A stretch of 51,840 bases of DNA from an uncultured Pseudomonadota bacterium (lineage in GTDB: Bacteria; Oederibacteriota; Muellerivitia; Muellerivitales; Muellerivitaceae): NCBI GenBank assembly GCA_963843375.1, contig CAWJKT010000021.1, positions 1-51,840 on the forward strand, read 5' to 3'. The number at the start of each line of letters is the position of its first letter. The stretch's first letter is position 1. Both the position numbers and the translations under genes were made by a program. Below are positions 1 to 49,678 of this stretch, in pieces. Under the pieces are notes generated by a model. The model was not told the DNA's origin and did not search any database. It saw only the letters and a program-made list of their open reading frames with translations.

Positions 1-3
1 GTT

Positions 4-396
4 TTGGTGAAGGTCAAGCAGCTACAAGATTTTTTTAGGAAACTTTATCAAATGTGGGAACCATTAGTTAGGGGCCGGATGGACGCTGCACGTTCAGATA
101 CAACCCAGATTAATCAAGTGGACGTTGGCAATGGCGTAAAGCTTCACCTTGGGGCCGGTAAAACGGACAATGATTTGAGTCAAGCAGAGATAGAAATTTT
201 CTATGGGCAATTTCTTGGAATAGATGATGAAGGTGCCCATTTGTGTTTTGAGAAGATTCACCGCATCAATAAGGCAGAGATAAATAAGCTCCGCAAGATC
301 AAAGGTGAGGAGGGTTCGATGGAACGCAAACGCTCGGAACTCATCGAAAGAGTCTATAATCCTCAGCCTAAAAAACTAGAAATTAAGGGAGCCTGA
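4..396 (+). CDS. 3' part of hypothetical protein (full copy at 47142-47645)
   Basis: Identical to the C-terminal 130 aa of ORF 47106..47645; truncated by the window edge. Confidence 0.85.
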   Translation: MVKVKQLQDFFRKLYQMWEPLVRGRMDAARSDTTQINQVDVGNGVKLHLGAGKTDNDLSQAEIEIFYGQFLGIDDEGAHLCFEKIHRINKAEINKLRKIKGEEGSMERKRSELIERVYNPQPKKLEIKGA

Positions 397-398
397 CA

Positions 399-1346
399 AT
401 GCCATTTGAAATCAAAAAAGCAGAACGAAAAGACGCAAGAATTAAGATAGCCCTATTTGGCCCTCCGGGGTCAGGTAAAACAATGTCAGCTTTGAAGCTG
501 GCCCGTGGCCTTTGCGATAAGTGGGAGGAAATCTGCGTCATAGATACGGAAAACAATTCGGCTTCACTTTATGCGGACTTGGGGCCTTTCAACGTGATTG
601 AAATGGAGGCACCTTATTCTCCAAAACGATACGTTGAGGCTATCAACCAAGCGGTAAAAGACCATAACATCAAAGTTATCATCGTTGATAGCGCTTCTCA
701 TGAATGGAATGGCCCCGGCGGATGTCTTGAAATGGTGGATGCCTTCGGGGATTGGAAAACAGTAACCCCGTTGCATAATGAATTTATTGGGGCCATTACC
801 GGTAGTCCCAAGTTCGTCATCGGTTGTATGCGCTCCAAAATGGAGTATGTCATCACGGACATTGAGAAGAACGGCAAGAAAACAATTAAAGTGGAAAAAA
901 TTGGCCTCAAGGCCGAACAGCGCGAAAATGCACCTTATGAGTTTGGATTGACGTTTGTCATGGATTCAAAAACGATGGCCCATTTGGACAAGGACCGGAC
1001 AAATCTTTTTAACGGGATTGCGCCTTTCCAAATAGATGAATCCACGGGAAAGAAAATACGGGAATGGAATGAATCTGGCAAGGTAATGACCGAAAGAGAA
1101 AAATTCCGTCTTCAACTTTCAAAGAAGCCTATTAAGTTGGCTTCCTTGGATGAACAAAAGAAAGTCAAGGAATTGCCGGATGATGTCAAGGCGGCCCTCA
1201 AAGAAAAGGGTTACGAAACTATCGGAGAGGTGGCTGATTATTACCGCTCAAGAGATTGGGATTCCGAGTCCATAAAGTTTGAATTGGGCCTTATTAATGA
1301 AATGCCAGTTTTGGAAACTATCGGAAATAAAGAAGTGGAATTTTAA
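399..1346 (+). CDS. AAA_24 / Sak4-like ATPase, putative single-strand annealing recombinase
   Basis: Walker A GPPGSGKT, VIDTE, IIVDSASHEW motifs typical of phage Sak4/AAA_24; RBS AAGGGAG upstream. Confidence 0.85.
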   Translation: MPFEIKKAERKDARIKIALFGPPGSGKTMSALKLARGLCDKWEEICVIDTENNSASLYADLGPFNVIEMEAPYSPKRYVEAINQAVKDHNIKVIIVDSASHEWNGPGGCLEMVDAFGDWKTVTPLHNEFIGAITGSPKFVIGCMRSKMEYVITDIEKNGKKTIKVEKIGLKAEQRENAPYEFGLTFVMDSKTMAHLDKDRTNLFNGIAPFQIDESTGKKIREWNESGKVMTEREKFRLQLSKKPIKLASLDEQKKVKELPDDVKAALKEKGYETIGEVADYYRSRDWDSESIKFELGLINEMPVLETIGNKEVEF

Positions 1347-1369
1347 AAAAGAAAGAGAGAAAAAAGCCA

Positions 1370-1600
1370 ATGGCAACCCAAGCAAGGAAGGTTAAGGATC
1401 CCCAGGACCGGACGGTAGGGGTCTCAGTGACACGGCCCAAACGCCTAGCCGAAAGCGTTGATAAGGTGATCCGGGCAATGGCGGTGGAACTCAATCTGGA
1501 CATCAACCATTCCCAGGTGGTTTGTGCCCTGGAAGAACTGATGTTGGAAAACCCCAAGGTTTACCAGATGGTTTGCCTTTGGCTGAAGGCCACGTCTTAA
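1370..1600 (+). CDS. Small putative ribbon-helix-helix DNA-binding protein
   Basis: Beta-strand-like VGVSVTRP followed by two predicted helices (KRLAESVDKVIRAM; NHSQVVCALEELM). Confidence 0.5.
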   Translation: MATQARKVKDPQDRTVGVSVTRPKRLAESVDKVIRAMAVELNLDINHSQVVCALEELMLENPKVYQMVCLWLKATS

Positions 1601-1606
1601 AGATGC

Positions 1607-1635
1607 TTGATTTTCGATTTAAAAGGGATTAGGTT
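1607..1635 (+). promoter_or_regulatory. Putative sigma70-type promoter upstream of the replication gene
   Basis: TTGATT-17 nt-TAGGTT in an intergenic gap. Confidence 0.45.
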
Positions 1636-1716
1636 ATGAACAATTCAACTCTTGCGGCTACCAAGAGCGGCATTAAAGCCCGACGTGGGTGCCAGCCCTG
1701 GGAACGTTAAAACGAA

Positions 1717-1757
1717 CTCGGGGGTAGCCCTGGCCCCTTCGCCGGGTTTTTTATTTT
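1717..1757 (+). terminator. Intrinsic terminator or attenuator-like hairpin in the replication gene leader
   Basis: GC-rich hairpin ctcgg-gggtagccctggcccc-ttc-gccggg followed by TTTTTTATTTT. Confidence 0.5.
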
Positions 1758-1776
1758 CGGAGCAAAAAGGCGGTCT

Positions 1777-2280
1777 ATGAAATGGTACGGAAGGGAAGCC
1801 AATAATCGTTATGACCCGAAAATGGTCAAACTTTTCGATAGGTACAAATGCGAGGGATGGACGGTTTACTGGACGGTGCTGGACATGATCGCTGAGAAAT
1901 TGGATGCCAACCACTACACTTTTTGCCTTGAAGAAGAAACCCAATATATATCAAAGTTCCTGGAATTGACCATTGAAAAGGTGGACGCAATCCTGAACTA
2001 CTGTGTAGAACTTGGACTTCTAGACCGGGAGCCTCAATCCAAGCAAATAAGGTGCCTTAAAATCATGTCCCGACTGGATGATACCACTTCCAGAATCCCT
2101 GAAATTCGAAACCTTATTAGGCAAGCCAAGCGCTTCGAAGAAACTTCGAAGTTACTTCGTGCACCTACATACGTACCTACTTACTTACCTACGGACTTAC
2201 CGGCGGGGAAGATGTATCCATCCGCAGAAGAGCTATTTGAAATCGAACGATTAAAAAGCCAAAAAGGAAAAACTGCATGA
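1777..2280 (+). CDS. Putative replication initiator (DUF4373/Lin1244-like N-terminal domain)
   Basis: DPKMVKLFDRYKCEGWTVYWTVLDMIA...ILNYCVELGLL pattern of phage replisome organisers; short internal DNA repeats near the 3' end. Confidence 0.7.
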   Translation: MKWYGREANNRYDPKMVKLFDRYKCEGWTVYWTVLDMIAEKLDANHYTFCLEEETQYISKFLELTIEKVDAILNYCVELGLLDREPQSKQIRCLKIMSRLDDTTSRIPEIRNLIRQAKRFEETSKLLRAPTYVPTYLPTDLPAGKMYPSAEELFEIERLKSQKGKTA

Positions 2281-2426
2281 ACAATTCTGAACATCGTGCG
2301 CCTAAAGAACCTAGAACAAGCAGTATTGGAATTAGGAAAACGGGTAAAAGATTTAGAAAATAAGGTAAACCCAGCTTGGTTGAAAAATGCCTTAGACCTC
2401 AGTAAACCGAATAGTAGGAAAAAACG

Positions 2427-2636
2427 ATGAATTCAACGATTCCAAAATCCATTTTAAAATGCCCTCATTGCCGGGGTCCATACCTCCGTCACCACTACCG
2501 GCTTCACATTCGGGGAGTCAGAATGATTGACGGAAAGGCCATTTGCCCGGCCATGAAAGACCACCCTAATTATCACCGCCGGGACGTTAATTTGAAGCTT
2601 AAGGGTAAGGCGGTTTGGAGATTGGGGGCCCTATGA
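2427..2636 (+). CDS. Small basic hypothetical protein with CxxC
   Basis: ATGA-coupled to neighbours; CPHC motif; conserved in the second copy. Confidence 0.6.
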   Translation: MNSTIPKSILKCPHCRGPYLRHHYRLHIRGVRMIDGKAICPAMKDHPNYHRRDVNLKLKGKAVWRLGAL

Positions 2637-2839
2637 TCCTTCTTGAATACCCAGCGGAAATGAACCTGCCTCAACGTGAAGCTGATGAATCGCATGGCCG
2701 GTTTGAGTTTGGAGGCCAGCTTTTTACCTTGGGTTACCATTGCGGTAACTGCGGGGAAGTCCATGAGGTGGTCTTTGGATTTGACAGGCTTCAACCGCAT
2801 GATGATGGGGCCGGAAGGTTTACAAGTTCGGGGGCATAG
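2633..2839 (+). CDS. Hypothetical Zn-ribbon protein (C-terminus differs between the repeat copies)
   Basis: ATGA overlap with the upstream ORF; CGNCGEVH motif. Confidence 0.5.
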   Translation: MILLEYPAEMNLPQREADESHGRFEFGGQLFTLGYHCGNCGEVHEVVFGFDRLQPHDDGAGRFTSSGA

Positions 2840-2987
2840 CGGTATGAGGGTTATTGATTGGTGTCTACGGGCAAAAACGTCTTAGAGCTTTCTGGGGATT
2901 AAAAATGCCGAAAAGGGCCGATGGCTTTATGGATGGCGTAAAAACTACTTGAGAAAGGAGCTTAAATTCTATGTTTCCAGAAAATGA

Positions 2988-3512
2988 ATGAGCTTCAAAC
3001 CCCCAGTCCTGCGTCTTGGCAAGAACACCAAAACGGTCATCGGCGGCTTCAAACCAAAGACCGGGACTCTCAAGTGGGCAACCTTCGGGGTAAAGGACTC
3101 GGAGAAGACCAAACAGAAGCGAATGAGCCGGAACGGGAATACCCACCGGGGGAAATTAAATAAACTCTTGCCGTTGGTGAAGCGGGTCATCTGCCAAGAG
3201 TACGTGAGCCAGAACGGTGGGGAAGTTCGTAAGCTTGAAAAGTCCTTCGACTTGGAGCACATTCACGGCAAGGACGGAATGCACGGGGGAATCCCGGCGG
3301 TCATAAGCCCGATCAACTTACAGCTTTTAGACCGCAAAACGCATATCTTGAAAACGGACGGGCTTGAAATCTCCAGCCACTTCGACGGACGGGATAAGGT
3401 CATCCAAGCCCGGTTAACCGAACTAGCGGAAAGAATTCGAAGGAAAGCGGGAATCAATCCAAATTGGAAGGATTACAAGGCGGCCTATGAAAGCGAGGTT
3501 TACGACGAATGA
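2988..3512 (+). CDS. HNH-like nuclease domain protein
   Basis: DLEHIHGK...NLQLLDRKTHILKT resembles an HNH (beta-beta-alpha) motif. Confidence 0.55.
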   Translation: MSFKPPVLRLGKNTKTVIGGFKPKTGTLKWATFGVKDSEKTKQKRMSRNGNTHRGKLNKLLPLVKRVICQEYVSQNGGEVRKLEKSFDLEHIHGKDGMHGGIPAVISPINLQLLDRKTHILKTDGLEISSHFDGRDKVIQARLTELAERIRRKAGINPNWKDYKAAYESEVYDE

Positions 3513-3700
3513 GAACCTACGGGGAATTATGCAAGGCCCTTGGAATCAAAGATCCTCCCGCTAAAAAGTATTCAACCCATGAATATCGAACCGAATATTG
3601 GAGGAACTACTATCAAGACCACAAGAACGATCCGGGAGTTATAGAAAAAAAGAGGGCAGCATGGCGAAAGTGGAATCAAAAGCAAAAGCGCCAAAACTAG
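3509..3700 (+). CDS. Small basic hypothetical protein
   Basis: ATGA overlap, RBS GAGG. Confidence 0.6.
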   Translation: MRTYGELCKALGIKDPPAKKYSTHEYRTEYWRNYYQDHKNDPGVIEKKRAAWRKWNQKQKRQN

Positions 3701-4002
3701 TCGAGGCCTTTATCAACTGGGAAACCAATTTACGGGAAGGCCTGAATTACGGAACGGTAAAAATTCTTTCTGCGGATGGAATGGTTTGGGAAGTAGCGGT
3801 TTTCCGGGGCAAGGATGAGGGCCCTATCCTAGGATGGGGAAAGCCAAGAAGGCGCCAACACCTGGAGGCCTTGAAGAAAGATTACGGAAAGGACTTGGCG
3901 GGAATGGCCGAAACATGGCGGACCATGATTTTCAACCAGGACAAAGGATACGAATTGGGAAGCCCTTTATTCCTGGAACAGATTAAAAAGATGTTGCAAT
4001 AA
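3661..4002 (+). CDS. Hypothetical protein
   Basis: In-frame ATG at 3661 with RBS GAGGG; ORF track 3598..4002. Confidence 0.6.
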   Translation: MAKVESKAKAPKLVEAFINWETNLREGLNYGTVKILSADGMVWEVAVFRGKDEGPILGWGKPRRRQHLEALKKDYGKDLAGMAETWRTMIFNQDKGYELGSPLFLEQIKKMLQ

Positions 4003-4021
4003 CACAAAAACATAGTATTGT
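3991..4021 (+). promoter_or_regulatory. Putative promoter with operator-like AATAACAYAA motif
   Basis: TTGCAA-16-TATTGT; atgttgcaataacacaa is nearly identical to 47090-47106. Confidence 0.5.
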
Positions 4022-4028
4022 AGAACAC

Positions 4029-4244
4029 ATGGAACAGCAACAAGTCAGGCCACAATTTAACGATCTCACTGACCGCATCGAACGTTGCAGGCATTCATGG
4101 CCAGTGGATATCGCCATCTGCCCGAAATGCGAGTGGGAAGAAGAAGTGGCCCGGCTTGGAGCGAATCCAAAAATAGACAATGGAGAAATTGGCGAATGGG
4201 CAGAAAACGCAAAACAGAGGACAGTTCTACCGAACCAACCCTAA
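4029..4244 (+). CDS. Small Zn-ribbon-like hypothetical protein
   Basis: CRH...CPKC motif. Confidence 0.55.
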   Translation: MEQQQVRPQFNDLTDRIERCRHSWPVDIAICPKCEWEEEVARLGANPKIDNGEIGEWAENAKQRTVLPNQP

Positions 4245-4507
4245 AGCTAGTCACTAAAGAACAAGTTCCGGAAAAGGAATGGATTAACTTCGAATGCCCG
4301 AAAGGCCATCAAGAAGCAATGCCGGCCGAAGTCAACCCACTCTGTGGTCATAAGGATTGCAACTATCGCCGCATAATGAAACCGCGCCGGACTTGTCCGA
4401 AATGCGAGGGAACCGGCCAGAAGTTTCCGGGGTCCGTTCGACCCTGTGTTTGTTGCTGGGGCAATGGAACCGTGGCGCCGGAATTTACGCCGGAGGAATC
4501 TGAATAA
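4196..4507 (+). CDS. Cys-rich zinc-finger protein (DnaJ-like CxxCxGxG repeats)
   Basis: CPKGH, CPKCEGTG, CVCCWGNG; TAATG-coupled to the next gene; start chosen at in-frame ATG 4196. Confidence 0.65.
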   Translation: MGRKRKTEDSSTEPTLKLVTKEQVPEKEWINFECPKGHQEAMPAEVNPLCGHKDCNYRRIMKPRRTCPKCEGTGQKFPGSVRPCVCCWGNGTVAPEFTPEESE

Positions 4508-5304
4508 TGGGAAAAGATACGCGGATATCTTGGGCACATCACACTCAAAACTTTTGGATTGGTTGTACTAAGGTAAGCCCTGGTTGCGCCAATTGTTACG
4601 CCGAAGCCCAGCAAGATCATCTTTATCACCGGGTAAAGTGGGGAAAAGGAAATCCCAGGTCATTGACCAAGACTTGGAAAGAGCCTTTGAAATGGGACCG
4701 TGAAGCCCAAGAAAAAGGGATTCGTTGCCGGGTTTTCACCAATAGCCTATCCGATTTCTTCGATGAAGAAGTGTCTGAGGATTGGCGCTTCAACGCCATG
4801 GACGTTATCAAGAAAACTCCAAACTTGGATTGGCTGATATTGACCAAGCGAATCCAAAAAGCACATGACTTTTTGGCTAATGTGATTGGGTGGCCATGGC
4901 CGAACGTTTGGGTTGGAGCTTCGATAGAAAATCAAGAAGCTGTAGATTACCGGCTTCCAATCCTTGGACGCATTCCGGCTGCCGTACATTTCATAAGCGC
5001 TGAACCACTACTTGAAGCTATTGATATTCGCGCCCATTTAATCAAAGCTACTCATTATTCACCAAATACCGGTCCCGAAGGAGAAGTTTGGAATCATCCG
5101 CTTGATTGGGTTATCTGTGGGGGAGAAAGTGGAGAAGGTTTCCGCAATATGCGGGCATCATGGGCTCAAAACCTATTCGATCAGTGCCAAGCGGAGAAGG
5201 TAGCATTTTTTATGAAACAGGATTCAAGCCTTTACAACGAGTCCAAGGGCAAGATACCGGATGGGCTTTGGAATGTGAAAGAATTTCCAAAGGTGAACTT
5301 ATGA
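4507..5304 (+). CDS. DUF5131 (phage Gp37/Gp68) family protein
   Basis: [52 protein letters not shown] signature. Confidence 0.92.
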   Translation: MGKDTRISWAHHTQNFWIGCTKVSPGCANCYAEAQQDHLYHRVKWGKGNPRSLTKTWKEPLKWDREAQEKGIRCRVFTNSLSDFFDEEVSEDWRFNAMDVIKKTPNLDWLILTKRIQKAHDFLANVIGWPWPNVWVGASIENQEAVDYRLPILGRIPAAVHFISAEPLLEAIDIRAHLIKATHYSPNTGPEGEVWNHPLDWVICGGESGEGFRNMRASWAQNLFDQCQAEKVAFFMKQDSSLYNESKGKIPDGLWNVKEFPKVNL

Positions 5305-12898: not shown

Positions 12899-13003
12899 AT
12901 GGGCACAGAGTTTGAAGAAGGCCAGCCGTGGTGCCCTATCTGCGAAGAATGGGGGCATATCGCCATGGATTGCCCGGAAGTAGATGACGATGAGGATGAG
13001 TGA
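12899..13003 (+). CDS. 34-aa acidic CCHC zinc-knuckle microprotein (not in the ORF track)
   Basis: MGTEFEEGQPWCPICEEWGHIAMDCPEVDDDEDE, exact C-X2-C-X4-H-X4-C; purine-rich RBS GAGGGAG upstream. Confidence 0.65.
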   Translation: MGTEFEEGQPWCPICEEWGHIAMDCPEVDDDEDE

Positions 13004-13041
13004 CCGCCCCAAGAGGTCGGTAGACTAGAGAGGAAAAGGGA

Positions 13042-13773
13042 TTGAAGCCATTGGCACTCGATTTATGTTGCGGCATCTGGGAAGGCGGATGGGCCAATGG
13101 CCTGGTTAAAGCGGGCTGGCAGGTTATCGGCGTGGACATCGAGGACCAGGGCGGGTACGTGGGCCATAAGATTTTAGCGGACGTGCGCGAGATAGCCAAA
13201 GACCCCGAAAAGTATTTTCCGGCCTTGAAGTTTGATTTGGTGGTCGCAAGTCCCCCGTGCCAGGAGTTTTCGGTCAGTTCTCAACCCTTCAAGCGTTCTC
13301 GGGAGCGGTTCAACCTGGATAACCCACCCGACCGAAGCCTTTGGGATGCGGCTGTCACGATAGCCAAGAAGCTGAACGTGCCCTTGATTCTTGAGAATGT
13401 CCGCGGTGCGGTGAAGTTCATGGGTCCTCAGACATGGAACTACGGGAGTTATTACTTTTGGGGCGAAATGCCGGCCCTTACGCCAATCCCTTATCTCAAG
13501 GAAAACGGAGTTTGGAGCCACCGAAAAGGGTTTCAGAGTTCAGCGACACAAACGTTCGACCAAGACAGGGACACGCAGATTTCAGCGATAGCCAAAGCCC
13601 GAAATGGACTGCAAAGAACCAAGAGCATTTTCGTTGGAGAGTGTGACCGAATTGACGGAGTAAAGGGTGGTCTTTCAAGAAAGCGTTGGGCCGCAAGAGT
13701 TGCCATGATCCCCGAAGAACTGTCAACGTGGATTGGTGAGTGCTTTTATCCGCAGGAAATGAGAGGTCATTAA
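13042..13773 (+). CDS. Short DNA cytosine-5 methyltransferase-like protein
   Basis: Motif I LDLCCG..GG, motif IV SPPCQEFS, motif VI ENV. Confidence 0.8.
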   Translation: MKPLALDLCCGIWEGGWANGLVKAGWQVIGVDIEDQGGYVGHKILADVREIAKDPEKYFPALKFDLVVASPPCQEFSVSSQPFKRSRERFNLDNPPDRSLWDAAVTIAKKLNVPLILENVRGAVKFMGPQTWNYGSYYFWGEMPALTPIPYLKENGVWSHRKGFQSSATQTFDQDRDTQISAIAKARNGLQRTKSIFVGECDRIDGVKGGLSRKRWAARVAMIPEELSTWIGECFYPQEMRGH

Positions 13774-13898
13774 GGTGACGGTTGCTGAAAGGAAAAGTTG
13801 AGTTGCCGAAGGAAGGTTAGAAGGTAGCCATACCCGGAATGGGTGGCGGAAAGGTGAAGCCCAATGAATGACAATGATTTCATCGAAGAGTGTATCCT

Positions 13899-15128
13899 GT
13901 GAAAGAACGCCCCATCTTATTCAGCGGCCCGATGGTGAAGGCCATCTTGGAAGGTCGAAAGGGGCAAACCAGAAGAATTGTAAAAGAACTTCCTGACTTT
14001 ATTTATCGGCTATCGGATGATAGGATACAGGTAGTCTTTAATACGCTTTTGGAGGTTCAAGTTGAAAACCAAGGATGGAATCCAGTTGAGGCCGATACCG
14101 ACCTCTCCAAACCAGGACTATATGGCTGGAATGGATGGAAGGGTATATTCGCGGACCAAATACAAGGGTTTTGGGCGCAAGGTTTACGTGGATTGGTATG
14201 CGCTAAAAGGGCACGTGTCGGCAAAGGGTTACCCAACTATCTCACTTTGCCACGAAGGAAAAAAAATAACAAAGTCAGTTCACAAGCTGATTTGCATGGC
14301 CTTCCACGGATTGCCTCCGACCCCAGCCCATCAAGTGAGGCACTTGGACGGGATACCAGCCAACACGAATCCCAAGAATCTTTGCTGGGGAACTCAAGCG
14401 GAGAATTGGGCGGATCGCCGGATACATGGAACGGCGAGCGTTGGAGAAAAGCATTGGGCGTCAAAACTAACCAACGAAGAGCGGCGGCATTTGGTTTGGG
14501 CCATTCAAAACGGATTATGTTCACAGCACCACGCGGCAAAGGCATTGGGTATGAGCCAATCTGCTATTTCTTCCATCCTCCTTTCCAAGAATTGACCCGG
14601 CTATGGGTGAGGGAAACATTTACGATTGAGGATGGCGGGATGGAGTACTTGACCGATATCCCCAAGGATGGAACGCCTTACCTTGATGTTTTTGAAAATC
14701 CTTACGATAAAACGGAAATAACCAACCGGGAAGTACCGCACTATTTGGCTACGGAACCAGATTGTCACATTGTTCCTTGGGCTTGCATGGAAGGGGATTG
14801 CGACCACAAAGACAAGGAGGCGTGTAGCGAGAGAACCAAGTGGTGCCCATCCATCCATATGCCCCGATGGGCCAGCCGGATTGACCTGGAAGTGGTGAAG
14901 GTGCGAGTGGAGAGGTTACAGGATATTAGCGAGGAAGATTCTTTAGCGGAGGGGGTCGAAGCACTTCGCGGCCAGTTTGAAGGGGCTTTCAGTGCTGGAA
15001 AAAACGCATTAAGCGGAACCACGGCCAAGGAATGTTACGAGAGGCTTTGGAACGAAATTAACGGCCCCGAAAATTGGAACGCCAACCCATGGGTGTGGGT
15101 GGTGGAGTTCAAACGGATAAGACCTTAA
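13899..15128 (+). CDS. ASCH/PUA-like phage protein with a large in-frame insertion
   Basis: KERPILFSGPMVKAILEGRKGQTRR...RLWVRETF...PSIHMPRWASRIDLEVVKVRVERLQDISEEDSLAEG...NPWVWVVEF. Confidence 0.88.
   Translation: MKERPILFSGPMVKAILEGRKGQTRRIVKELPDFIYRLSDDRIQVVFNTLLEVQVENQGWNPVEADTDLSKPGLYGWNGWKGIFADQIQGFWAQGLRGLVCAKRARVGKGLPNYLTLPRRKKNNKVSSQADLHGLPRIASDPSPSSEALGRDTSQHESQESLLGNSSGELGGSPDTWNGERWRKALGVKTNQRRAAAFGLGHSKRIMFTAPRGKGIGYEPICYFFHPPFQELTRLWVRETFTIEDGGMEYLTDIPKDGTPYLDVFENPYDKTEITNREVPHYLATEPDCHIVPWACMEGDCDHKDKEACSERTKWCPSIHMPRWASRIDLEVVKVRVERLQDISEEDSLAEGVEALRGQFEGAFSAGKNALSGTTAKECYERLWNEINGPENWNANPWVWVVEFKRIRP
14062..14595 (+). CDS. NUMOD4-HNH homing endonuclease nested in the +1 frame of the ASCH-like gene
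   Basis: RPIP...YMAGMDGRVYS, KGYPTISL, VHKLICMAFHG, VRHLDGIPANTNPKNLCWGTQAEN, GEKHWASKLT, C-terminal HTH; RBS GGAGG at 14051-14055. Confidence 0.9.
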   Translation: MKTKDGIQLRPIPTSPNQDYMAGMDGRVYSRTKYKGFGRKVYVDWYALKGHVSAKGYPTISLCHEGKKITKSVHKLICMAFHGLPPTPAHQVRHLDGIPANTNPKNLCWGTQAENWADRRIHGTASVGEKHWASKLTNEERRHLVWAIQNGLCSQHHAAKALGMSQSAISSILLSKN

Positions 15129-15139
15129 AGGGCAGTTAG

Positions 15140-15288
15140 TAGCGGTTGAGCGCATGGGCGGCGTGGATCAGTACACGCTTTGCCGTTGGGGTCAGTAATC
15201 GAATATCGGGGGTCCGAGGCTAAGTTGACCCGTTGCTAAAACTCTGATAAGCCGGGGGAAAGTCCCGGCCCCATGCGCTGAACTGTTA
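15140..15288 (+). ncRNA. tRNA-like structured ncRNA, copy B
   Basis: AGCGCATGGG (15149-15158) pairs with CCCATGCGCT (15270-15279); CGGCGTGG...ACACGC; GCCGGG/CCCGGC arm; covaries with copy A. Confidence 0.7.
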
Positions 15289-15396
15289 ATTTGAGTGAAG
15301 AACTGAAAGCGTAGTCCCCAGGGAGCCAAGGTGACGAGCCACCGGGGGAGAGACCTAATGAACCTTTCCCCCAAACCTGGGCTTTTCTCTTGGAAC

Positions 15397-15425
15397 TTGA
15401 CAGGATTTAAGAATAGTCCAATAAT
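15397..15425 (+). promoter_or_regulatory. Putative sigma70 promoter
   Basis: TTGACA-17 nt-AATAAT upstream of ORF 15446. Confidence 0.6.
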
Positions 15426-15445
15426 TGGAACGAGGTTAATTTATA

Positions 15446-15781
15446 ATGAGTTCAACCCTACATGTAGCCTCCCATGAAAATCCATATGTCGCGGAGTTAC
15501 TCCGGTTAGGGATTCTAGCCGCCCGCCAGCGCCCGTTTGACCCTGAGGACTGGGAACTTTCCACGATGGAGGACTTGGGCGTCCAGTTACTCCAAGAGCT
15601 AGGGGCCAGTAGTTCCAGTGGTGTGAGTTATGTCGTAATCCCAGAACTACCAGTTCGTTCACGATGGTGCCTGAAGTGTAGCGAAACGTTCATCAGTGAT
15701 AATCTGTACTGTGATAAGTGTAGGGCAAATCCCGGTGATTACAATCCCAGGTTTCCGGGATTAAGGAGGAGCAGATTATGA
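15446..15781 (+). CDS. Hypothetical protein with C-terminal Zn ribbon
   Basis: CLKC...CDKC; RBS GAGG. Confidence 0.6.
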   Translation: MSSTLHVASHENPYVAELLRLGILAARQRPFDPEDWELSTMEDLGVQLLQELGASSSSGVSYVVIPELPVRSRWCLKCSETFISDNLYCDKCRANPGDYNPRFPGLRRSRL

Positions 15782-15954
15782 CACACTTTTTACTTCTCTT
15801 CATCGTCCTCTTTGGTGGATTCTTGGGATGGGGGCTTTGGGAAGATAGGCCAACGCAACTAGACAAGCGTTTGAGGGAACTGGCAGACTGTTATCCTCAC
15901 CGTACTTATTTAATGGACTCTTTTCAAGATATGATGAACACCCAACATCGTTAA
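15778..15954 (+). CDS. 58-aa single-TM protein (not in the ORF track)
   Basis: ATGA-coupled, RBS AGGAGG; MTHFLLLFIVLFGGFLGWGLW. Confidence 0.6.
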   Translation: MTHFLLLFIVLFGGFLGWGLWEDRPTQLDKRLRELADCYPHRTYLMDSFQDMMNTQHR

Positions 15955-16029
15955 AGATATGGATAGACGAGTATTGGAATATTGGCGCTCAAAACCGATG
16001 GATTTCCGAAAATGTGAAGAAGGAGACAG

Positions 16030-16445: not shown

Positions 16446-16638
16446 CCGTAGTACCCAAGGATTCAAGGTTAGAGCGCCGGGGCCTGTGGGGGATCACGAG
16501 GCCCCAAACTTGGGTGGAGAAGCAGTTGGTAAGGCAGTGGGCGGTTCGACTCCGCATAAGGCCTAGGGTTAGGTGACACCGTTTGCCGGGTGAACGTGTC
16601 CGAGAGGGTTCGAATCCCTTATACGGCTCTCTTTTTTT
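16446..16638 (+). ncRNA. Structured RNA with two canonical TpsiC-type hairpins
   Basis: GCGG-TTCGACT-CCGC (16541-16555) and GAGGG-TTCGAAT-CCCTT (16604-16620); further stems ACCCAAG/CTTGGGT, GGGGCCT/AGGCCCC, GACAC/GTGTC, CCGTA/TACGG. Confidence 0.55.
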
Positions 16639-16651
16639 GAAAGGCAAAGCA

Positions 16652-17197
16652 ATGATTCGCCACAATCTCCCTGGATTCCTGGACTCGGTTCCGCAAAGAA
16701 ACATTGGTAAACCATTTAAAAAAGGCCATAGTGGGAATTCCAAAGGAAGACCAACAAAACCGCCAGAAGAATTGATCATAAAACGAGAAAACGGTTGTTG
16801 GATATGGATTGGATTGACCGATAAACTTGGTTATGGATCTTTTAATAAAAATAAAAAAAGGTATAGTTCTCACAGATATTTTTATGAATTAAAAAAAGGA
16901 ACGATACCCAAAGGATTGGTAATTGACCATCTTTGCCGAAATGCGTCTTGTTGCAATCCCGAACATTTAGAAGCAGTAACCAACAAAGAAAATATTCTTA
17001 GAGGTGTTGGGATTACTGCTAAAGAAGCGAAACAAACTCACTGTAAAAATGGGCATCCTTTATCGGGCGAAAATCTAAGGCTACATATTCGCGGTTATCG
17101 AAGGTGTCTAACTTGCATGAGAAATTACAGTAAGGAATATTGGAAAAATAAGGATCGACGGCCAAAAAACCACATAGAAGCCACAAACAATGGCTAA
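16652..17197 (+). CDS. HNH endonuclease with a terS-like (DUF5681-type) N-terminal motif
   Basis: CWIWIG...GYG...SHRYFYE...IDHLCRNASCCNPEHLEAVTNKEN...THCKNGH; FKKGHSGNSKGRP near the N-terminus; AT-rich. Confidence 0.88.
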   Translation: MIRHNLPGFLDSVPQRNIGKPFKKGHSGNSKGRPTKPPEELIIKRENGCWIWIGLTDKLGYGSFNKNKKRYSSHRYFYELKKGTIPKGLVIDHLCRNASCCNPEHLEAVTNKENILRGVGITAKEAKQTHCKNGHPLSGENLRLHIRGYRRCLTCMRNYSKEYWKNKDRRPKNHIEATNNG

Positions 17198-17567
17198 TCC
17201 AAATCCAAAACATAAATTTTCTAAGGGAAATAAGGCTAATCCTCATGGACGCCCCAAACTCACGCCAGAAGAACAAGCCATCCGCAAACTCACGAAAGCG
17301 GAAGTGGTTGAGATCACAAGCCTTATCCTCAAAGGGGATAGAACGGAACTTGAGGGACTCGTGAAAGCAATGGGCACCCCAATATTTCAAGCTATGATTG
17401 CCAGCGTTTCGGTGAAGATCATAAAGACAGGTGACATGGACGCATTGGACAAACTCTTGAACCGCCTTATCGGAAAAGTGAAGGAAGAGGTGGAAGTATC
17501 TGGGGAAGGGTTGCGCCCTGTCTTTTTGAAATTCGAGGATAACGGACGTCAAGCGAAACCTAAGTGA
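17190..17567 (+). CDS. terS: Terminase small subunit
   Basis: FSKGNKANPHGRPK motif, LLNRLIGK...VEVSG; directly upstream of and overlapping terL. Confidence 0.75.
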   Translation: MANPNPKHKFSKGNKANPHGRPKLTPEEQAIRKLTKAEVVEITSLILKGDRTELEGLVKAMGTPIFQAMIASVSVKIIKTGDMDALDKLLNRLIGKVKEEVEVSGEGLRPVFLKFEDNGRQAKPK

Positions 17568-18964
17568 ATGTCGAACCGATTGAGATAGGTCCGCAAAAAG
17601 GCCCACAGACTATTTTCTCGAAATGCCCTGCCGATATCGCGATTTACGGAGGGGCGGCTGGTGGTGGTAAGTCTTGGTCGGTTCTCTACGAAGCCTTACG
17701 AAACGTTGAAAATCCATATTTCACCGCTTTAATCCTTCGTCGCACAATCCCTCAAATCACGAATCCCGGTGGTCTTTGGGATGAATCCAAAAAGCTATAT
17801 TCTCTTGTGAATGGTTCGGCTAACAATTCTGCTTTGATATGGCGTTTCCCTTCCGGCTTTTACATCAAATTCGCCGGTCTTGAGCATGAGGATTCAAAGC
17901 TTGGCTTCCAAGGCGCCCAAATTCCCTATATCGCCTTCGACGAACTTACCCATTTCACAGAAACCCAGTTTTGGTATATGCAATCCCGTAACCGTTCGGA
18001 ATCGGGGGTTTCGGGATACGTCCGGGCAACCACTAATCCAGACCCGGATTCATGGGTGAGGAAATTCATTGATTGGTGGATAGGGCCGGATGGTTTCCCG
18101 ATTCCCGAGCGTGCGGGCAAACTGCGCTGGTTTATTCGCTTAAATGATGAAATTATATGGGCTAGCTCCAAAAAAGAGATATTCGATAAATACGGAGAAG
18201 GGCCCGAAATCCTGCCTCAAAGCGTGACGTTCATTCCTGCCAAGCTTGAAGACAACAAGATTCTGATGAAGAAAGACCCGTCTTATAAGGCGAAGCTTTT
18301 GGGGATGGGTCGGGTAGAACGAGGACGCTTACACGGTGGAAACTGGAATATCCGGGCTACGGCTGGCGACATGTTTGATCGTGACCGTTTCGAGATAGTG
18401 GAAGCTTTACCGCATGGCTGGATAGACCAAATCCGGTTTTGGGATAAGGCGGGCACGAAACCACGTGAAGGATTGGCGGTTCCTGATTGGACAGTAGGCC
18501 TAAAAATGCTAAAGTATCCCAACGGGCTTTACATCGTTTCCCACGTCGAGCGATTCCAGGATGAACCAGGGGAAGTGAACGAGGCCATTAAAAATATAGC
18601 GAAACAGGATGGGGTTTCGTGTAGGATAAAAGAGCAACAAGATCCTGGCCAGGCGGGGAAAGAGGAAGCGCAAAACTTTACCAAGATGCTTGGGAGTTTC
18701 ATTGTCCATACCCAGCCCTTTTCCAAGAACAAGGTTTTAAGGGCGGCCCCGGTTCGTGCCCAAGTATTCGCCCGGAACATCAAACTTTTGCGGGGACCGT
18801 GGAACGAAGCCTTTCTCTCGGAACTGGATTCCTGGACCGGCGACAAAGACGAAGTAGATGACCAAATCGACGCTTTCAGTGGGGCCTATAACGACTTAGC
18901 GGGAGTTCCAACCATGAGCATGGAAGCGGTGAATCGACAAGCCCGTATTTTAGGGAGACGTTAA
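17564..18964 (+). CDS. terL: Terminase large subunit
   Basis: Walker A YGGAAGGGKS, Walker B IAFDELTHF, RATTNP, nuclease RFWDKAGT...DWTVG...DDQIDA. Confidence 0.96.
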   Translation: MNVEPIEIGPQKGPQTIFSKCPADIAIYGGAAGGGKSWSVLYEALRNVENPYFTALILRRTIPQITNPGGLWDESKKLYSLVNGSANNSALIWRFPSGFYIKFAGLEHEDSKLGFQGAQIPYIAFDELTHFTETQFWYMQSRNRSESGVSGYVRATTNPDPDSWVRKFIDWWIGPDGFPIPERAGKLRWFIRLNDEIIWASSKKEIFDKYGEGPEILPQSVTFIPAKLEDNKILMKKDPSYKAKLLGMGRVERGRLHGGNWNIRATAGDMFDRDRFEIVEALPHGWIDQIRFWDKAGTKPREGLAVPDWTVGLKMLKYPNGLYIVSHVERFQDEPGEVNEAIKNIAKQDGVSCRIKEQQDPGQAGKEEAQNFTKMLGSFIVHTQPFSKNKVLRAAPVRAQVFARNIKLLRGPWNEAFLSELDSWTGDKDEVDDQIDAFSGAYNDLAGVPTMSMEAVNRQARILGRR

Positions 18965-47141: not shown

Positions 47142-47645
47142 ATGCCAAATGATTTGCAAGTCAAAGAGATTTTGCTTTCCGAGGGCGAAATCTTCCAGCC
47201 AATATCCGACGATCAGTTCAGGGCACTCCCCTTGAACGATGCGGCTTCGGTTTTGGTGAAGGTCAAGCAGCTACAAGATTTTTTTAGGAAACTTTATCAA
47301 ATGTGGGAACCATTAGTTAGGGGCCGGATGGACGCTGCACGTTCAGATACAACCCAGATTAATCAAGTGGACGTTGGCAATGGCGTAAAGCTTCACCTTG
47401 GGGCCGGTAAAACGGACAATGATTTGAGTCAAGCAGAGATAGAAATTTTCTATGGGCAATTTCTTGGAATAGATGATGAAGGTGCCCATTTGTGTTTTGA
47501 GAAGATTCACCGCATCAATAAGGCAGAGATAAATAAGCTCCGCAAGATCAAAGGTGAGGAGGGTTCGATGGAACGCAAACGCTCGGAACTCATCGAAAGA
47601 GTCTATAATCCTCAGCCTAAAAAACTAGAAATTAAGGGAGCCTGA
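47142..47645 (+). CDS. Hypothetical protein upstream of the Sak4-like ATPase
   Basis: RBS AAGGAG before ATG 47142; helical N-half. Confidence 0.75.
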   Translation: MPNDLQVKEILLSEGEIFQPISDDQFRALPLNDAASVLVKVKQLQDFFRKLYQMWEPLVRGRMDAARSDTTQINQVDVGNGVKLHLGAGKTDNDLSQAEIEIFYGQFLGIDDEGAHLCFEKIHRINKAEINKLRKIKGEEGSMERKRSELIERVYNPQPKKLEIKGA

Positions 47646-47647
47646 CA

Positions 47648-48595
47648 ATGCCATTTGAAATCAAAAAAGCAGAACGAAAAGACGCAAGAATTAAGATAGC
47701 CCTATTTGGCCCTCCGGGGTCAGGTAAAACAATGTCAGCTTTGAAGCTGGCCCGTGGCCTTTGCGATAAGTGGGAGGAAATCTGCGTCATAGATACGGAA
47801 AACAATTCGGCTTCACTTTATGCGGACTTGGGGCCTTTCAACGTGATTGAAATGGAGGCACCTTATTCTCCAAAACGATACGTTGAGGCTATCAACCAAG
47901 CGGTAAAAGACCATAACATCAAAGTTATCATCGTTGATAGCGCTTCTCATGAATGGAATGGCCCCGGCGGATGTCTTGAAATGGTGGATGCCTTCGGGGA
48001 TTGGAAAACAGTAACCCCGTTGCATAATGAATTTATTGGGGCCATTACCGGTAGTCCCAAGTTCGTCATCGGTTGTATGCGCTCCAAAATGGAGTATGTC
48101 ATCACGGACATTGAGAAGAACGGCAAGAAAACAATTAAAGTGGAAAAAATTGGCCTCAAGGCCGAACAGCGCGAAAATGCACCTTATGAGTTTGGATTGA
48201 CGTTTGTCATGGATTCAAAAACGATGGCCCATTTGGACAAGGACCGGACAAATCTTTTTAACGGGATTGCGCCTTTCCAAATAGATGAATCCACGGGAAA
48301 GAAAATACGGGAATGGAATGAATCTGGCAAGGTAATGACCGAAAGAGAAAAATTCCGTCTTCAACTTTCAAAGAAGCCTATTAAGTTGGCTTCCTTGGAT
48401 GAACAAAAGAAAGTCAAGGAATTGCCGGATGATGTCAAGGCGGCCCTCAAAGAAAAGGGTTACGAAACTATCGGAGAGGTGGCTGATTATTACCGCTCAA
48501 GAGATTGGGATTCCGAGTCCATAAAGTTTGAATTGGGCCTTATTAATGAAATGCCAGTTTTGGAAACTATCGGAAATAAAGAAGTGGAATTTTAA
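47648..48595 (+). CDS. AAA_24 / Sak4-like ATPase (second copy)
   Basis: Protein identical to 399..1346. Confidence 0.85.
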   Translation: MPFEIKKAERKDARIKIALFGPPGSGKTMSALKLARGLCDKWEEICVIDTENNSASLYADLGPFNVIEMEAPYSPKRYVEAINQAVKDHNIKVIIVDSASHEWNGPGGCLEMVDAFGDWKTVTPLHNEFIGAITGSPKFVIGCMRSKMEYVITDIEKNGKKTIKVEKIGLKAEQRENAPYEFGLTFVMDSKTMAHLDKDRTNLFNGIAPFQIDESTGKKIREWNESGKVMTEREKFRLQLSKKPIKLASLDEQKKVKELPDDVKAALKEKGYETIGEVADYYRSRDWDSESIKFELGLINEMPVLETIGNKEVEF

Positions 48596-49025
48596 AAAAG
48601 AAAGAGAGAAAAAAGCCAATGGCAACCCAAGCAAAGAAGGTTAAGGATCCCCAGGACCGGACGGTAGGGGTCTCAGTGACACGGCCCAAACGCCTAGCCG
48701 AAAGCGTTGATAAGGTGATCCGGGCAATGGCGGTGGAACTCAATCTGGACATCAACCATTCCCAGGTGGTTTGTGCCCTGGAAGAACTGATGTTGGAAAA
48801 CCCCAAGGTTTACCAGATGGTTTGCCTTTGGCTGAAGGCCACGTCTTAAAGATGCTTGATTTTCGATTTAAAAGGGATTAGGTTATGAACAATTCAACTC
48901 TTGCGGCTACCAAGAGCGGCATTAAAGCCCGACGTGGGTGCCAGCCCTGGGAACGTTAAAACGAACTCGGGGGTAGCCCTGGCCCCTTCGCCGGGTTTTT
49001 TATTTTCGGAGCAAAAAGGCGGTCT

Positions 49026-49529: not shown

Positions 49530-49678
49530 ATAATTCGGACATCGTGCGCCTAAAGAACCTAGAACAAGCAGTTCTGGAATTAGGAAAACGGGTAAAAGAT
49601 TTAGAAAATAAGGTAAACCCAGCTTGGTTGAAAAATGCCTTAGATCTCAGTAAACCGAATAGTAGGAAAAAACGATGA
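49526..49678 (+). CDS. 50-aa coiled-coil protein, intact only in the second copy
   Basis: MNNSDIVRLKNLEQAVLELGKRVKDLENK...; ATGA-coupled at both ends; copy 1 (2277-2430) has a 1-nt insertion. Confidence 0.65.
   Translation: MNNSDIVRLKNLEQAVLELGKRVKDLENKVNPAWLKNALDLSKPNSRKKR

What the first reader, a model, noticed from the sequence alone, without database searches (positions are those of the whole stretch)
13899..15128. Homing endonuclease overprinted inside an intact host gene with both frames open
Seen: a full NUMOD4-HNH-HTH ORF (14062-14595) has its own RBS (GGAGG, 6 nt before TTG) and a possible internal extended -10 promoter (TG-a-TAGGAT, 14018-14026). It lies wholly inside an ASCH-like gene, in the +1 frame. 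The host frame has no stop across the 178 overlapped codons, roughly 2e-4 by chance under uniform codon use. Its conserved N-terminal (ILEGRKGQTRR) and C-terminal (RLWVRE...PSIHMPR) motifs flank the insert. I see no intein termini and no obvious group I intron core. Known: this family normally has only a short variable segment between these motifs, and homing endonucleases usually spare their host gene by intron or intein splicing or by standing free. Inference: a splicing-free parasitic strategy in which the nuclease sits in a tolerant loop and keeps the host frame translatable.
Basis: partly seen in the sequence, partly recalled or inferred. Interest (0 to 1): 0.88.

Follow-up and report, generated by a model that had tools for sequence, protein, structure and literature searches.

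The report
Hidden HNH gene inside read-through phage gene
A selfish DNA-cutting (HNH homing endonuclease) gene sits in a shifted reading frame inside a phage ASCH-fold gene whose own frame is kept free of stop codons, so the host protein is probably made whole with a floppy loop and no splicing; a 2025 paper described this lifestyle in phage methylases, so this is a well-supported new example.

Summary
ORF 13899-15128 (409 aa from GTG 13899) stays open across a nested 177-aa HNH ORF (14062-14595), which lies one base out of frame.

This is not chance. 83 of 84 loci with a related HNH have no stop in the host frame. Across 54 distinct alleles, 0 of 2521 stop-prone codon junctions carries the T that would make a stop, where about 410 were expected. 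A free-standing relative has 14 stops.

- **Selection:** it acts on the HNH (dN/dS 0.05-0.25) and on the host halves (0.04-0.64), but not on the host-frame peptide inside the insert.
- **Host protein:** the two halves fold into one ASCH domain (Z 12.7 to YqfB). The insert sits at the end of the family's variable loop.
- **Mobility:** nearly identical cassettes occur in diverged host alleles.
- **Splicing:** no intron or intein signal was found.
- **Expression:** an extended -10-like motif upstream of the HNH start is conserved in 39 of 54 alleles.

The principle is published (ShiLan domain, PMC11855218). This scan has also noted it before in other genes on other DNA. I rate it a new member of a known kind.

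The parts
13899..15128 (+). Host gene: phage ASCH-fold protein of PHROG 874, 409 aa, read through the insert. An upstream in-frame GTG at 13890 would give 412 aa.
   Evidence: ORF. PHROG 874 at E 7.5e-63. AF2 model plus VIA-align: YqfB Z 12.7, PH0355 12.1, ASCH 3s9x 11.7, over model residues 2-407.
13899..14021 (+). Host N-terminal part (beta1, helix, beta2, short loop). It carries the GxKxxTRR motif and the diverged upstream copy of the 'YGxPGDR(L/I)' motif (YRLSDDRI).
   Evidence: Alignments A1 and A4. pLDDT is 71-96 for residues 1-50.
14022..14597 (+). Insert (cassette) of 576 nt = 192 codons. The boundaries can slide by 6 nt (14028-14603) because 'R(I/L)' stands on both sides.
   Evidence: Comparison of insert-free and insert-bearing alleles. 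Recently exchanged high-identity tracts in other allele pairs span the HNH ORF plus about 85 nt upstream and 25 nt downstream.
14018..14026 (+). Extended -10-like motif TGATAGGAT, a candidate cassette promoter 35 nt before the HNH start.
   Evidence: TGnTAnnnT lies within 90 nt upstream of the HNH start in 39 of 54 alleles, against 153 of 3981 background windows. The Ile codon here is ATA in 28 of 30 cases against 133 of 585 elsewhere, while the preceding residue varies. Function is inferred. The simple sigma-70 scan found no full promoter on the + strand.
14051..14055 (+). Shine-Dalgarno-like GGAGG, 6 nt before the TTG start of the HNH ORF.
   Evidence: Sequence. An SD-like motif is present in 22 of 54 alleles.
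14062..14595 (+). HNH homing-endonuclease ORF (177 aa, I-HmuI-like, C-terminal HTH-like tail). It is one base out of frame with the host.
   Evidence: dN/dS is 0.05-0.25 in the 11 of 14 allele pairs where dS could be estimated.
14598..15128 (+). Host C-terminal part (RLWVRE strand to the end), which forms most of the ASCH fold.
   Evidence: dN/dS is 0.16-0.45 among insert-bearing alleles.
13042..13773 (+). Context: upstream C-5 cytosine DNA methylase-like gene.
   Evidence: Pfam PF00145 at E 7.2e-8. Insert-free homologues in phages F116, LKA5 and PMG1 also lie next to DNA methyltransferase genes.

Best explanation
This is a 'hidden' out-of-frame homing-endonuclease cassette. A 576-nt element carries an I-HmuI-like HNH gene. 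It sits at the end of the variable beta2-beta3 loop of a phage ASCH-fold gene, just before the conserved RLWVRE strand.

The element is not spliced out. Its synonymous codon choices are purged of every T that would make a stop in the host frame. Ribosomes therefore read the host gene straight through and make a 409-aa ASCH protein with an extra loop of about 190 residues. That loop is mostly disordered and its sequence is unconstrained.

The HNH protein is made separately by internal initiation. In this window that means TTG 14062 behind GGAGG. It probably also comes from a cassette-borne extended -10 promoter at 14018-14026.

The nuclease presumably cuts insert-free alleles near the 'GD|RLWVRE' site. 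Repair then copies the cassette in (homing). This explains near-identical cassettes in diverged host alleles.

Shown by computation: the anatomy, the stop purge, the selection pattern, the fold and the patchy, exchanged distribution. Inferred: read-through translation, disorder of the loop, promoter use, cleavage and homing.
For: **1. Stop purge**
- 82 of 83 loci (window, L005, L006 and 80 metagenome loci) have 0 stops in the host frame across the HNH ORF. The other forward frame has 3-17 stops.
- L169, from a genome collection, adds 0 of 56.
- I took 56 of these loci forward. I dropped 27: near-duplicates, contig-end fragments and L113. This left 54 distinct alleles with mean HNH identity 64%.
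- In those alleles, 0 of 2521 stop-prone junctions carry T, against 1595 of 7004 at other junctions. About 410 stops would be expected.
- Controls: the free-standing relative L113 (65% identical) has 14 of 58, L007 has 11 of 93, and L008 has 59 of 167.

**2. Only openness is selected**
- Codon-position diversity in the HNH frame is 0.31 / 0.23 / 0.56.
- Host-frame peptide identity inside the insert is 33.5%, no better than the non-coding frame at 35.0%.
- dN/dS is 0.05-0.25 for the HNH, 0.04-0.64 for host N, 0.16-0.45 for host C, and 0.88-3.09 for the host frame inside the insert. These come from 14 pairs; dS was saturated in 3-4 pairs per partition.

**3. One fold from two halves**
- The AF2 model has pLDDT below 50 at residues 52-81 and 108-203, with ordered flanks.
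- VIA-align gives Z 12.7 to YqfB, with 101 of 102 residues aligned over model residues 2-407.
- In the insert-free homologue L009 (pLDDT 88) the site lies at the end of a low-confidence loop, residues 28-71.
- That loop varies in length among 66 insert-free relatives.

**4. Mobility**
- The insert label needs 11 changes on a 120-protein tree, of which at least 3 are forced by starred branches.
- L125 and L127 share a 90-100% identical tract around the HNH (dS 0.045), while their flanks have dS of about 1. L110/L125 and L159/L165 behave similarly.

**5. No splicing signature**
- Rfam finds no intron in the window region at E<=10, nor in 16 allele loci (66 kb) at E<=0.1.
- Pfam finds no domain in the 412-aa read-through protein.

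**6. Precedent**
- The same architecture is published for the ShiLan domain (PMC11855218).
Against: - There is no direct evidence that the read-through protein is made, that it works, or that the RNA is unspliced.
- All loci were found through intact HNH peptides. Alleles with decayed cassettes or closed host frames would have been missed.
- Alleles share ancestry, so the counts are not fully independent. Against that, third-position diversity is 0.56.
- L140 keeps the frame open (0 of 45) although its host gene looks decayed, with no N motif and no RLWVRE. Openness can therefore outlast host function for a while.
- An SD-like motif is seen in only 22 of 54 alleles.
- The simple promoter scan finds no full sigma-70 promoter on the + strand.
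- A host-frame helix and strand at residues 85-104 have moderate pLDDT (64-78), so part of the loop may not be disordered.
- The hosts of nearly all alleles are unknown.
Confidence: 0.8

Rival explanations
1. The insert is removed by splicing of an undescribed kind: a ribozyme whose core overlaps the HNH ORF, or protein-level excision. The mature ASCH protein would then lack the loop.
For: The insert is flanked by two diverged copies of the host motif: 'YGxPGDR(L/I)' upstream and 'CP(F)QxGxRL' or 'GGDRL' downstream. The ShiLan paper discusses a similar flank resemblance as a possible intron guide-sequence signature. I-HmuI, the nearest solved relative, is intron-encoded (plus recalled knowledge).
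Against: - RNA splicing would give no reason to purge about 410 expected stops from the host frame.
- Rfam finds no intron model in the window or in 16 alleles.
- Only about 35-90 nt upstream and 2-25 nt downstream lie outside the HNH ORF.
- Third positions are uniformly variable (0.39-0.68 per 9-codon window), which leaves little room for a conserved RNA core.
- The host-frame peptide is no more conserved than a non-coding frame, so an intein-like catalytic domain is excluded.
Confidence: 0.05
2. The ASCH gene is functionally dead or dispensable in insert-bearing phages. On this view the host frame is kept open for the cassette's own benefit, for example to keep ribosomes on the mRNA and so avoid polarity or decay.
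For: L140 keeps the frame open although the host gene looks decayed. The family has no known function and is absent from many phages.
Against: - The host halves of insert-bearing alleles are under purifying selection: dN/dS 0.04-0.64 for N and 0.16-0.45 for C.
- They keep the family's nearly invariant residues in a joint alignment of 54 insert-bearing and 66 insert-free proteins.
- The free-standing relative L113 accumulates stops in that frame.
Confidence: 0.07
3. The HNH is a domesticated partner of the ASCH protein and not a selfish element. The model is modification-dependent nucleases that combine a PUA-superfamily reader with an HNH domain. The overlap would serve co-expression.
For: - ASCH belongs to the PUA-like folds (fold matches).
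- EVE-HNH enzymes such as VcaM4I exist (PMC7897488; search listing and abstract only).
- The gene sits beside DNA methylase genes.
- All 84 HNH copies found are intact and strongly conserved.
Against: - Most family members lack the HNH. All 80 of the best IMG/VR loci lack it, and no cultured-phage hit covers the insert.
- The distribution on the host tree is patchy.
- Cassettes are far more similar than their flanks, which is a sign of recent lateral exchange.
- The HNH has its own DNA-binding tail and resembles the homing enzyme I-HmuI.
- A 65%-identical copy stands free elsewhere.
Confidence: 0.08

Closest known systems
ShiLan domain: hidden out-of-frame HNH endonuclease in mycobacteriophage DNA methylases (Arsenault, Gosselin, Gogarten 2025, PMC11855218; earlier PMC9957025, which I saw only as a search listing and abstract)
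   Same: - The HNH ORF lies in an alternate frame wholly inside a host gene.
- The host frame has no stops.
- No intron or intein signature is found.
- The HNH start is a few tens of nt into the insert and its stop is within the last bases of the insert (here TGA ends 2 nt before the insert end).
- The flank resembles the insert end.
- The in-frame product is predicted as a loop.
- The distribution is patchy and homing-like (compared).
   Different: - The host gene is an ASCH-fold protein (PHROG 874), not a methylase.
- The alleles come from environmental metagenomes and a tailed phage of unknown host, not actinophages.
- This window has a clear SD, whereas the paper reports no RBS and proposes leaderless initiation.
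- Stop purging, frame-specific selection and a conserved extended -10-like motif are quantified here. I did not see those in the sections I read.
Pacc40 gp60 insertion (same paper, section 3.6)
   Same: It is a second, unrelated hidden ORF in a phage gene, with relatives that stand free next to the uninvaded gene. Here L113 is a free-standing 65%-identical relative.
   Different: The host gene and the insert family are different, and the paper calls the HNH assignment of that insert less certain.
I-HmuI, the HNH homing endonuclease of Bacillus phage SPO1 (PDB 1U3E)
   Same: It is the nearest solved relative by sequence (E 3.8e-10). The alignment covers the HNH core and the C-terminal helix-turn-helix.
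   Different: I-HmuI is encoded in a self-splicing group I intron (recalled). Here there is no intron signal and the host frame is open.
Free-standing homing endonucleases that split a host gene into pieces (for example mobE in T-even-type phages; recalled, with PMC2790892 seen only as a search listing and abstract)
   Same: An HNH homing endonuclease gene without intron or intein lies inside or next to a conserved phage gene.
   Different: Those leave two separate host polypeptides or sit between genes. Here a single continuous host ORF is preserved.
Inteins with the endonuclease in another frame (bioRxiv 10.1101/2025.01.02.630785, search listing and abstract only; scan note e1-3474245)
   Same: An out-of-frame HNH ORF sits inside an element that is translated in the host frame.
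   Different: Those have a Hint splicing domain. Here the host-frame peptide is unconserved and matches no Pfam domain.

Membership tests
Hidden out-of-frame HNH insertion elements (ShiLan-type) | A complete HNH ORF in an alternate frame lies wholly inside a host coding gene. | tested here: met
   for the window. The same holds in 83 of 84 related loci.
Hidden out-of-frame HNH insertion elements (ShiLan-type) | The host frame has no stop across the insert, beyond what chance would give. | tested here: met
   0 of 40 junctions in the window (p about 1.6e-4). 0 of 2521 in 54 alleles. Controls show 14 of 58, 11 of 93 and 59 of 167.
Hidden out-of-frame HNH insertion elements (ShiLan-type) | No recognisable self-splicing intron or intein. 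| tested here: met
   Rfam finds no intron family. Pfam finds no family in the 412-aa product. The host-frame peptide is unconserved. Unknown splicing types cannot be excluded by these tools.
Hidden out-of-frame HNH insertion elements (ShiLan-type) | Patchy distribution among host-gene alleles and signs of recent transfer (homing). | tested here: met
   11 label changes on the host tree, at least 3 of them forced. Cassette dS is 0.045 against flank dS of about 1 in L125/L127. High-identity tracts are seen.
HNH homing endonucleases (I-HmuI-like) | HNH catalytic motif above Pfam's curated threshold, and homology to a solved homing enzyme. | tested here: met
   HNH_3 scores 39.6 bits against a cut-off of 24.8. 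1U3E matches at E 3.8e-10.
   No NUMOD4 hit at E<=10 in 4 of 4 proteins. The more distant relative in L007 has a sub-threshold hit (E 5.9e-4, 20.5 bits against a cut-off of 23.4).
HNH homing endonucleases (I-HmuI-like) | Site-specific cleavage of the insert-free allele, followed by gene conversion. | not testable with these tools
   Only the evolutionary footprint is available.
ASCH domain (PUA-like fold) | Pfam PF04266 above threshold. | tested here: not met
   There is no hit for the 412-aa protein or its halves. The insert-free homologue L009 scores 17.2 bits against a cut-off of 21.2 (E 0.0087).
ASCH domain (PUA-like fold) | ASCH beta-barrel fold. | tested here: met
   VIA-align: YqfB Z 12.7 (rmsd 2.3, 101 aligned), PH0355 12.1, ASCH 3s9x 11.7, EF3133 10.3, ZmASCH 8.3. 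Foldseek on the L009 model: YqfB E 6.9e-4 with probability 1.00, then 3s9x, 2z0t, 1t62 and ZmASCH.
Group I intron with an endonuclease ORF | Conserved ribozyme core detectable by a covariance model. | tested here: not met
   No Intron_gpI or other intron hit in window 13000-16000 at E<=10, nor in 16 allele loci at E<=0.1.
Intein | A Hint splicing domain in the host frame, conserved among alleles. | tested here: not met
   No Pfam family in the read-through protein. Host-frame identity inside the insert is 33.5% against 35.0% for a non-coding frame.

The most novel reading that the evidence does not exclude
Hidden HNH cassettes may be self-contained expression modules and a widespread third lifestyle for homing endonucleases in coding genes, beside introns and inteins.

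In this family the cassette leader carries a conserved extended -10-like element. Its nucleotides are kept while the overlapping host-frame residue varies. In one clade the element ends exactly 7 nt before the ATG, which would give a leaderless HNH mRNA. In the clade of this window it lies 29-47 nt upstream of an SD-bearing leader.

The cassette would thus bring its own transcription and translation start, be purged of host-frame stops, and sweep between ASCH alleles that have otherwise diverged to saturation.
Probability: 0.45. Interest if true: 0.7.

Novelty: new member of a known kind. Interest (0 to 1): 0.5.

Why it matters
Homing endonuclease genes are usually thought to survive inside coding genes only by riding in self-splicing introns or inteins. 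This locus and about 80 diverged relatives give quantitative evidence for a third route. The parasite leaves itself in the message, and selection on its synonymous sites keeps the host frame readable.

The family offers a large natural data set for studying dual-frame constraint: 0 of 2521 stop-prone junctions carry a T. It also gives testable predictions about how the hidden gene is expressed, through either an extended -10 plus leaderless start or an SD start. Finally, it shows that gene callers and annotators will miss such nucleases and will report inflated 'hypothetical' host proteins.

It does not establish a new principle, because the ShiLan work of 2025 did that. No function is known for the host protein.

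Tried and rejected
- **Protein homologue search.** I did not repeat it, so I have no count of long forms among predicted proteins.
- **RNA evidence.** One RNA run and one run of uncertain type each hold only a small share of the region's words. Laying them gave one 205-nt contig in the host C part and one 155-nt contig inside the HNH. Neither bridges a junction and no joints appeared. This says nothing for or against splicing or expression.
- **Promoter scan.** The simple scan found no sigma-70-type site on the + strand of 13600-15400, and its 2 minus-strand hits are at shuffle level. That scan requires a -35 hexamer, so it does not test an extended -10.
- **Direct repeats.** In 13880-14700 the search gave eleven short two-copy families. 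One is CGGCTATCGG / CGGCTATGGG, 591 nt apart at the two junctions. Equally good pairs occur elsewhere in the region, so I do not treat it as a target-site duplication. The protein-level motif duplication is the better evidence.
- **Beta-hairpin mimicry.** I considered that the cassette ends encode mimics that complete the host fold. The insert-free model shows 'CPYGKPGD' as loop, not strand, so I dropped the idea.
- **Cultured phages.** No record carries the insert-bearing allele. 343 records match and none covers 80% or more of the query. A DNA search gave only short conserved matches.
- **Own genome.** It holds no second copy of this HNH.
- **Scan notes by place and by host C-half sequence.** Both look-ups returned nothing.
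Full report
**What is there.** The window is a whole 51.8-kb contig of a 4.05-Mb, 32-contig genome bin. It is a tailed-phage genome. It encodes terminase large subunit, portal, major head protein, tail sheath and baseplate, all on the + strand. Its first 4.6 kb recurs at the end at 99.1% identity.

At 13890-15128 there is a 412-aa open frame. Homologues begin at the GTG at 13899, which gives 409 aa. Inside it, one base out of frame, lies a TTG-started 177-aa ORF at 14062-14595. GGAGG stands 6 nt before the TTG, and TGATAGGAT stands at 14018-14026.

The nested ORF is an HNH endonuclease:
- Pfam HNH_3 gives E 3.9e-10, above the curated cut-off.
- PHROG 59 gives E 2.5e-34.
- A profile of three alleles matches the solved homing enzyme I-HmuI (1U3E) at E 3.8e-10 over the HNH core and the C-terminal helix-turn-helix.
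- NUMOD4 was not detected in 4 of 4 proteins at E<=10.

The outer ORF matches PHROG 874, a family of unknown function, at E 7.5e-63 in two pieces. Residues 4-36 match profile positions 65-97, and the C half matches positions 127-258.

**Is the open host frame chance?** A host-frame stop can arise only where an HNH codon ending in T is followed by one beginning AA, AG or GA.
- The window's HNH ORF has 40 such junctions and none has the T.
- In 50 other genes of the contig, 633 of 3231 such junctions do. This gives 1.6e-4. Only 1 of 477 equally long windows is open in that frame.

**Relatives.** Searching IMG/VR with the HNH protein gave two alleles at 63-65% identity (L005, L006), with the same nesting and open host frames. 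A metagenome scan with their alignment gave 107 confirmed relatives, of which the best 80 were kept.
- Of the 83 loci (window, L005, L006 and these 80), 82 have no stop in the host frame across the HNH ORF. The other forward frame has 3-17 stops.
- 81 of them show the host N and/or C part in that same frame.
- The exception, L113, is a 65%-identical HNH standing free between unrelated genes. It has 14 stops at 58 junctions.
- L169, the single hit in the genome collection (a 4.2-kb MAG contig), is also nested and open, with 0 of 56.
- More distant HNH genes have 11 of 93 (L007) and 59 of 167 (L008).

I took 56 loci forward. I dropped 27: near-duplicates, contig-end fragments and L113. That left 54 distinct alleles. 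They have 2521 stop-prone junctions with no T, against 1595 T at 7004 other junctions. Scaled by the contig's own bias, about 410 stops would be expected.

There is an ascertainment limit. All loci were found through intact HNH peptides, so decayed cassettes would be missed.

**What is selected.**
- Codon-position diversity in the HNH frame is 0.31 / 0.23 / 0.56.
- Third positions are variable along the whole ORF, at 0.39-0.68 per 9-codon window.
- The host-frame peptide inside the insert is 33.5% identical on average. The frame that codes for nothing is 35.0% identical.
- The host-frame peptide is rich in G, R, S, A, E and Q.

Nei-Gojobori estimates on 14 allele pairs (dS was saturated in 3-4 pairs per partition):

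| Partition | dN/dS |
|---|---|
| HNH | 0.05-0.25 |
| Host N part | 0.04-0.64 |
| Host C part | 0.16-0.45 |
| Host frame inside the insert | 0.88-3.09 |

So both genes are maintained. Inside the insert, the host frame is kept open but not conserved.

**The host protein.** Insert-free homologues are common. All 80 of the best IMG/VR loci and 343 cultured-phage records lack the insert, among them F116p07, LKA5 gp08 and PMG1_00060 at 205-225 aa.

An AF2 model of the 409-aa protein used 120 aligned sequences.
- The flanks are confident.
- pLDDT is below 50 at residues 52-81 and 108-203.
- A host-frame helix and strand at residues 85-104 reach 64-78.
- The ordered parts together match ASCH-fold structures: YqfB Z 12.7 (rmsd 2.3, 101 of 102 residues, model range 2-407), PH0355 12.1, ASCH 3s9x 11.7, EF3133 10.3 and ZmASCH 8.3.

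The insert-free L009 model (pLDDT 88) gives the same matches. Pfam ASCH itself is not reached: 17.2 bits against a cut-off of 21.2 for L009, and nothing for the window.

The insertion point lies between 'GD' and 'RLWVRE'. This is the end of the beta2-beta3 loop, which is low-confidence in the L009 model (residues 28-71) and varies in length among 66 insert-free relatives. This supports the 'tolerant loop' reading.

The gene sits beside DNA methylase genes here and in F116, LKA5 and PMG1.

**Boundaries.** The closest free and invaded pair is L018 against L156, L124, L091 and L104.
- Insert-free alleles read '...PYGQPGD|RLWVRE'.
- Insert-bearing alleles read '...YGQPGDRL-LCYHC...insert...RVGGD-RLYVRE'.
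- In the window's clade, the upstream copy has diverged to 'YRLSDDRI'. The downstream end often reads 'CPFQVGxRLWVRE'.

The insert is thus flanked by two diverged copies of the host motif, and its ends can slide by two codons. In the window it is 576 nt, 14022-14597 or equivalently 14028-14603. The HNH start lies 35-40 nt inside it, and the stop ends 2 nt before its end. The ShiLan paper describes the same layout and a similar flank resemblance.

**Mobility.** A FastTree tree of 120 host proteins was built on the 156 shared columns, with the insert columns removed. On it the insert label needs 11 changes. At least 3 are forced by well-supported branches, and shuffled labels need 39.6. Insert-free L018 lies inside a supported clade of nine invaded alleles. 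The window's nearest relative, L009, is insert-free.

The cassettes are much more alike than their flanks:

| Pair | High-identity tract | Flanks |
|---|---|---|
| L125/L127 | 90-100% over 421-1050 (HNH at 506-1027; HNH dS 0.045) | 30-70% identity, dS about 1 |
| L110/L125 | near-identical from the 5' end to just past the HNH | 16-60% after that |
| L159/L165 | 2410-3039 | lower on both sides |

This is the footprint of recent cassette transfer with co-conversion, as expected for homing.

**Expression of the hidden gene.** All 54 alleles have a start codon at the expected place: ATG in 42, TTG in 11 and GTG in 1. An SD-like motif is present in 22.

- TGnTAnnnT occurs within 90 nt upstream of the HNH start in 39 of 54 alleles. 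The background is 153 of 3981 windows in the same loci and 21 of 1007 inside the genes.
- In 11 alleles without SD it ends exactly 7 nt before the ATG. This spacing would give a leaderless mRNA.
- In SD-bearing alleles it lies 29-47 nt upstream, often with a second copy 12 nt later.
- At the overlapping host codons, Ile is ATA in 28 of 30 cases against 133 of 585 elsewhere. The preceding residue varies (R, I, N, K, M, W) while the TA..AT pattern is kept. This points to nucleotide-level selection.

Promoter function is inferred. The hosts are unknown, and the simple sigma-70 scan found no full promoter.

**Splicing.** Rfam finds no intron family in 13000-16000 at E<=10, nor in 16 allele loci (66 kb) at E<=0.1. 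The read-through protein has no Pfam domain. An RNA splice would not need an open frame. A protein splice would need a conserved host-frame domain, and there is none.

**Literature and earlier notes.** Full-text searches found the ShiLan papers. PMC11855218 was read (abstract, sections 3 and 4). PMC9957025 and a genome announcement, PMC12613952, were seen only as listings and abstracts. These describe the same architecture in mycobacteriophage DNA methylases. None of the three searches returned a paper on an ASCH-fold host gene.

This scan has already noted the same lifestyle on other DNA. The host genes were methylases, DUF5131, DUF5664, an SNF2 helicase, a polyvalent protein and another common phage gene. 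A look-up with this host gene's C half found nothing.

**Verdict.** The finding is real, statistically overwhelming and mechanistically coherent. It is an instance of a kind published in 2025: a new host family and a large environmental clade. Two things are added here: quantified dual-frame selection, and a candidate cassette promoter.

Noticed in passing
window 16583-17197 (+): A second, free-standing HNH endonuclease gene (204 aa; PHROG 826 E 2.6e-45; Pfam HNH_3 E 6.2e-15) lies just upstream of the small ORF 17190-17567 and the terminase large subunit at 17564-18964. This is the position typical of packaging-associated HNH proteins.
   Followed up: partly
window 1-4610 and 47249-51839: The contig's two ends repeat each other at 99.1% identity (19 mismatches, 14 gap openings). 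This suggests a circular or concatemeric assembly of a roughly 47.2-kb phage genome from a slightly heterogeneous population.
   Followed up: partly
L007 2057-3358: A more distant relative of the HNH (39% identity) is inserted in frame inside a DUF5131 gene. One 433-aa ORF carries DUF5131 in two stretches (E 4.1e-62) around a sub-threshold NUMOD4 hit and HNH_3. This is an in-frame domain insertion, not an overprinted one.
   Followed up: partly
L113 744-1343: A 65%-identical HNH gene stands free between unrelated genes, with 14 stops in the frame that is open in all nested copies. It may be a source or a sink of the cassette.
   Followed up: partly
L140 2239-3123: The cassette is intact and the outer frame is open (0 of 45). 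The host gene looks decayed, however. Only a C-terminal 'NG..W.DNP.V.V..F' remnant follows the insert, and no N motif is found.
   Followed up: partly
window 13042-13773 and L001-L003: PHROG 874 genes lie next to DNA methyltransferase genes in this phage and in phages F116, LKA5 and PMG1. This hints that the ASCH-fold protein acts on or reads modified nucleic acid.
   Followed up: no
window 15129-15445: About 320 nt downstream of the host gene has no ORF of 60 aa or more on the + strand before 15446, and no Rfam hit at E<=10. I did not examine it further.
   Followed up: no
L023 and L062: In two IMG/VR loci the N motif and the C half of the PHROG 874 gene are not in one open frame. L023 has a stop between them, and L062 has them in different frames. 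These may be broken genes or sequencing errors.
   Followed up: no
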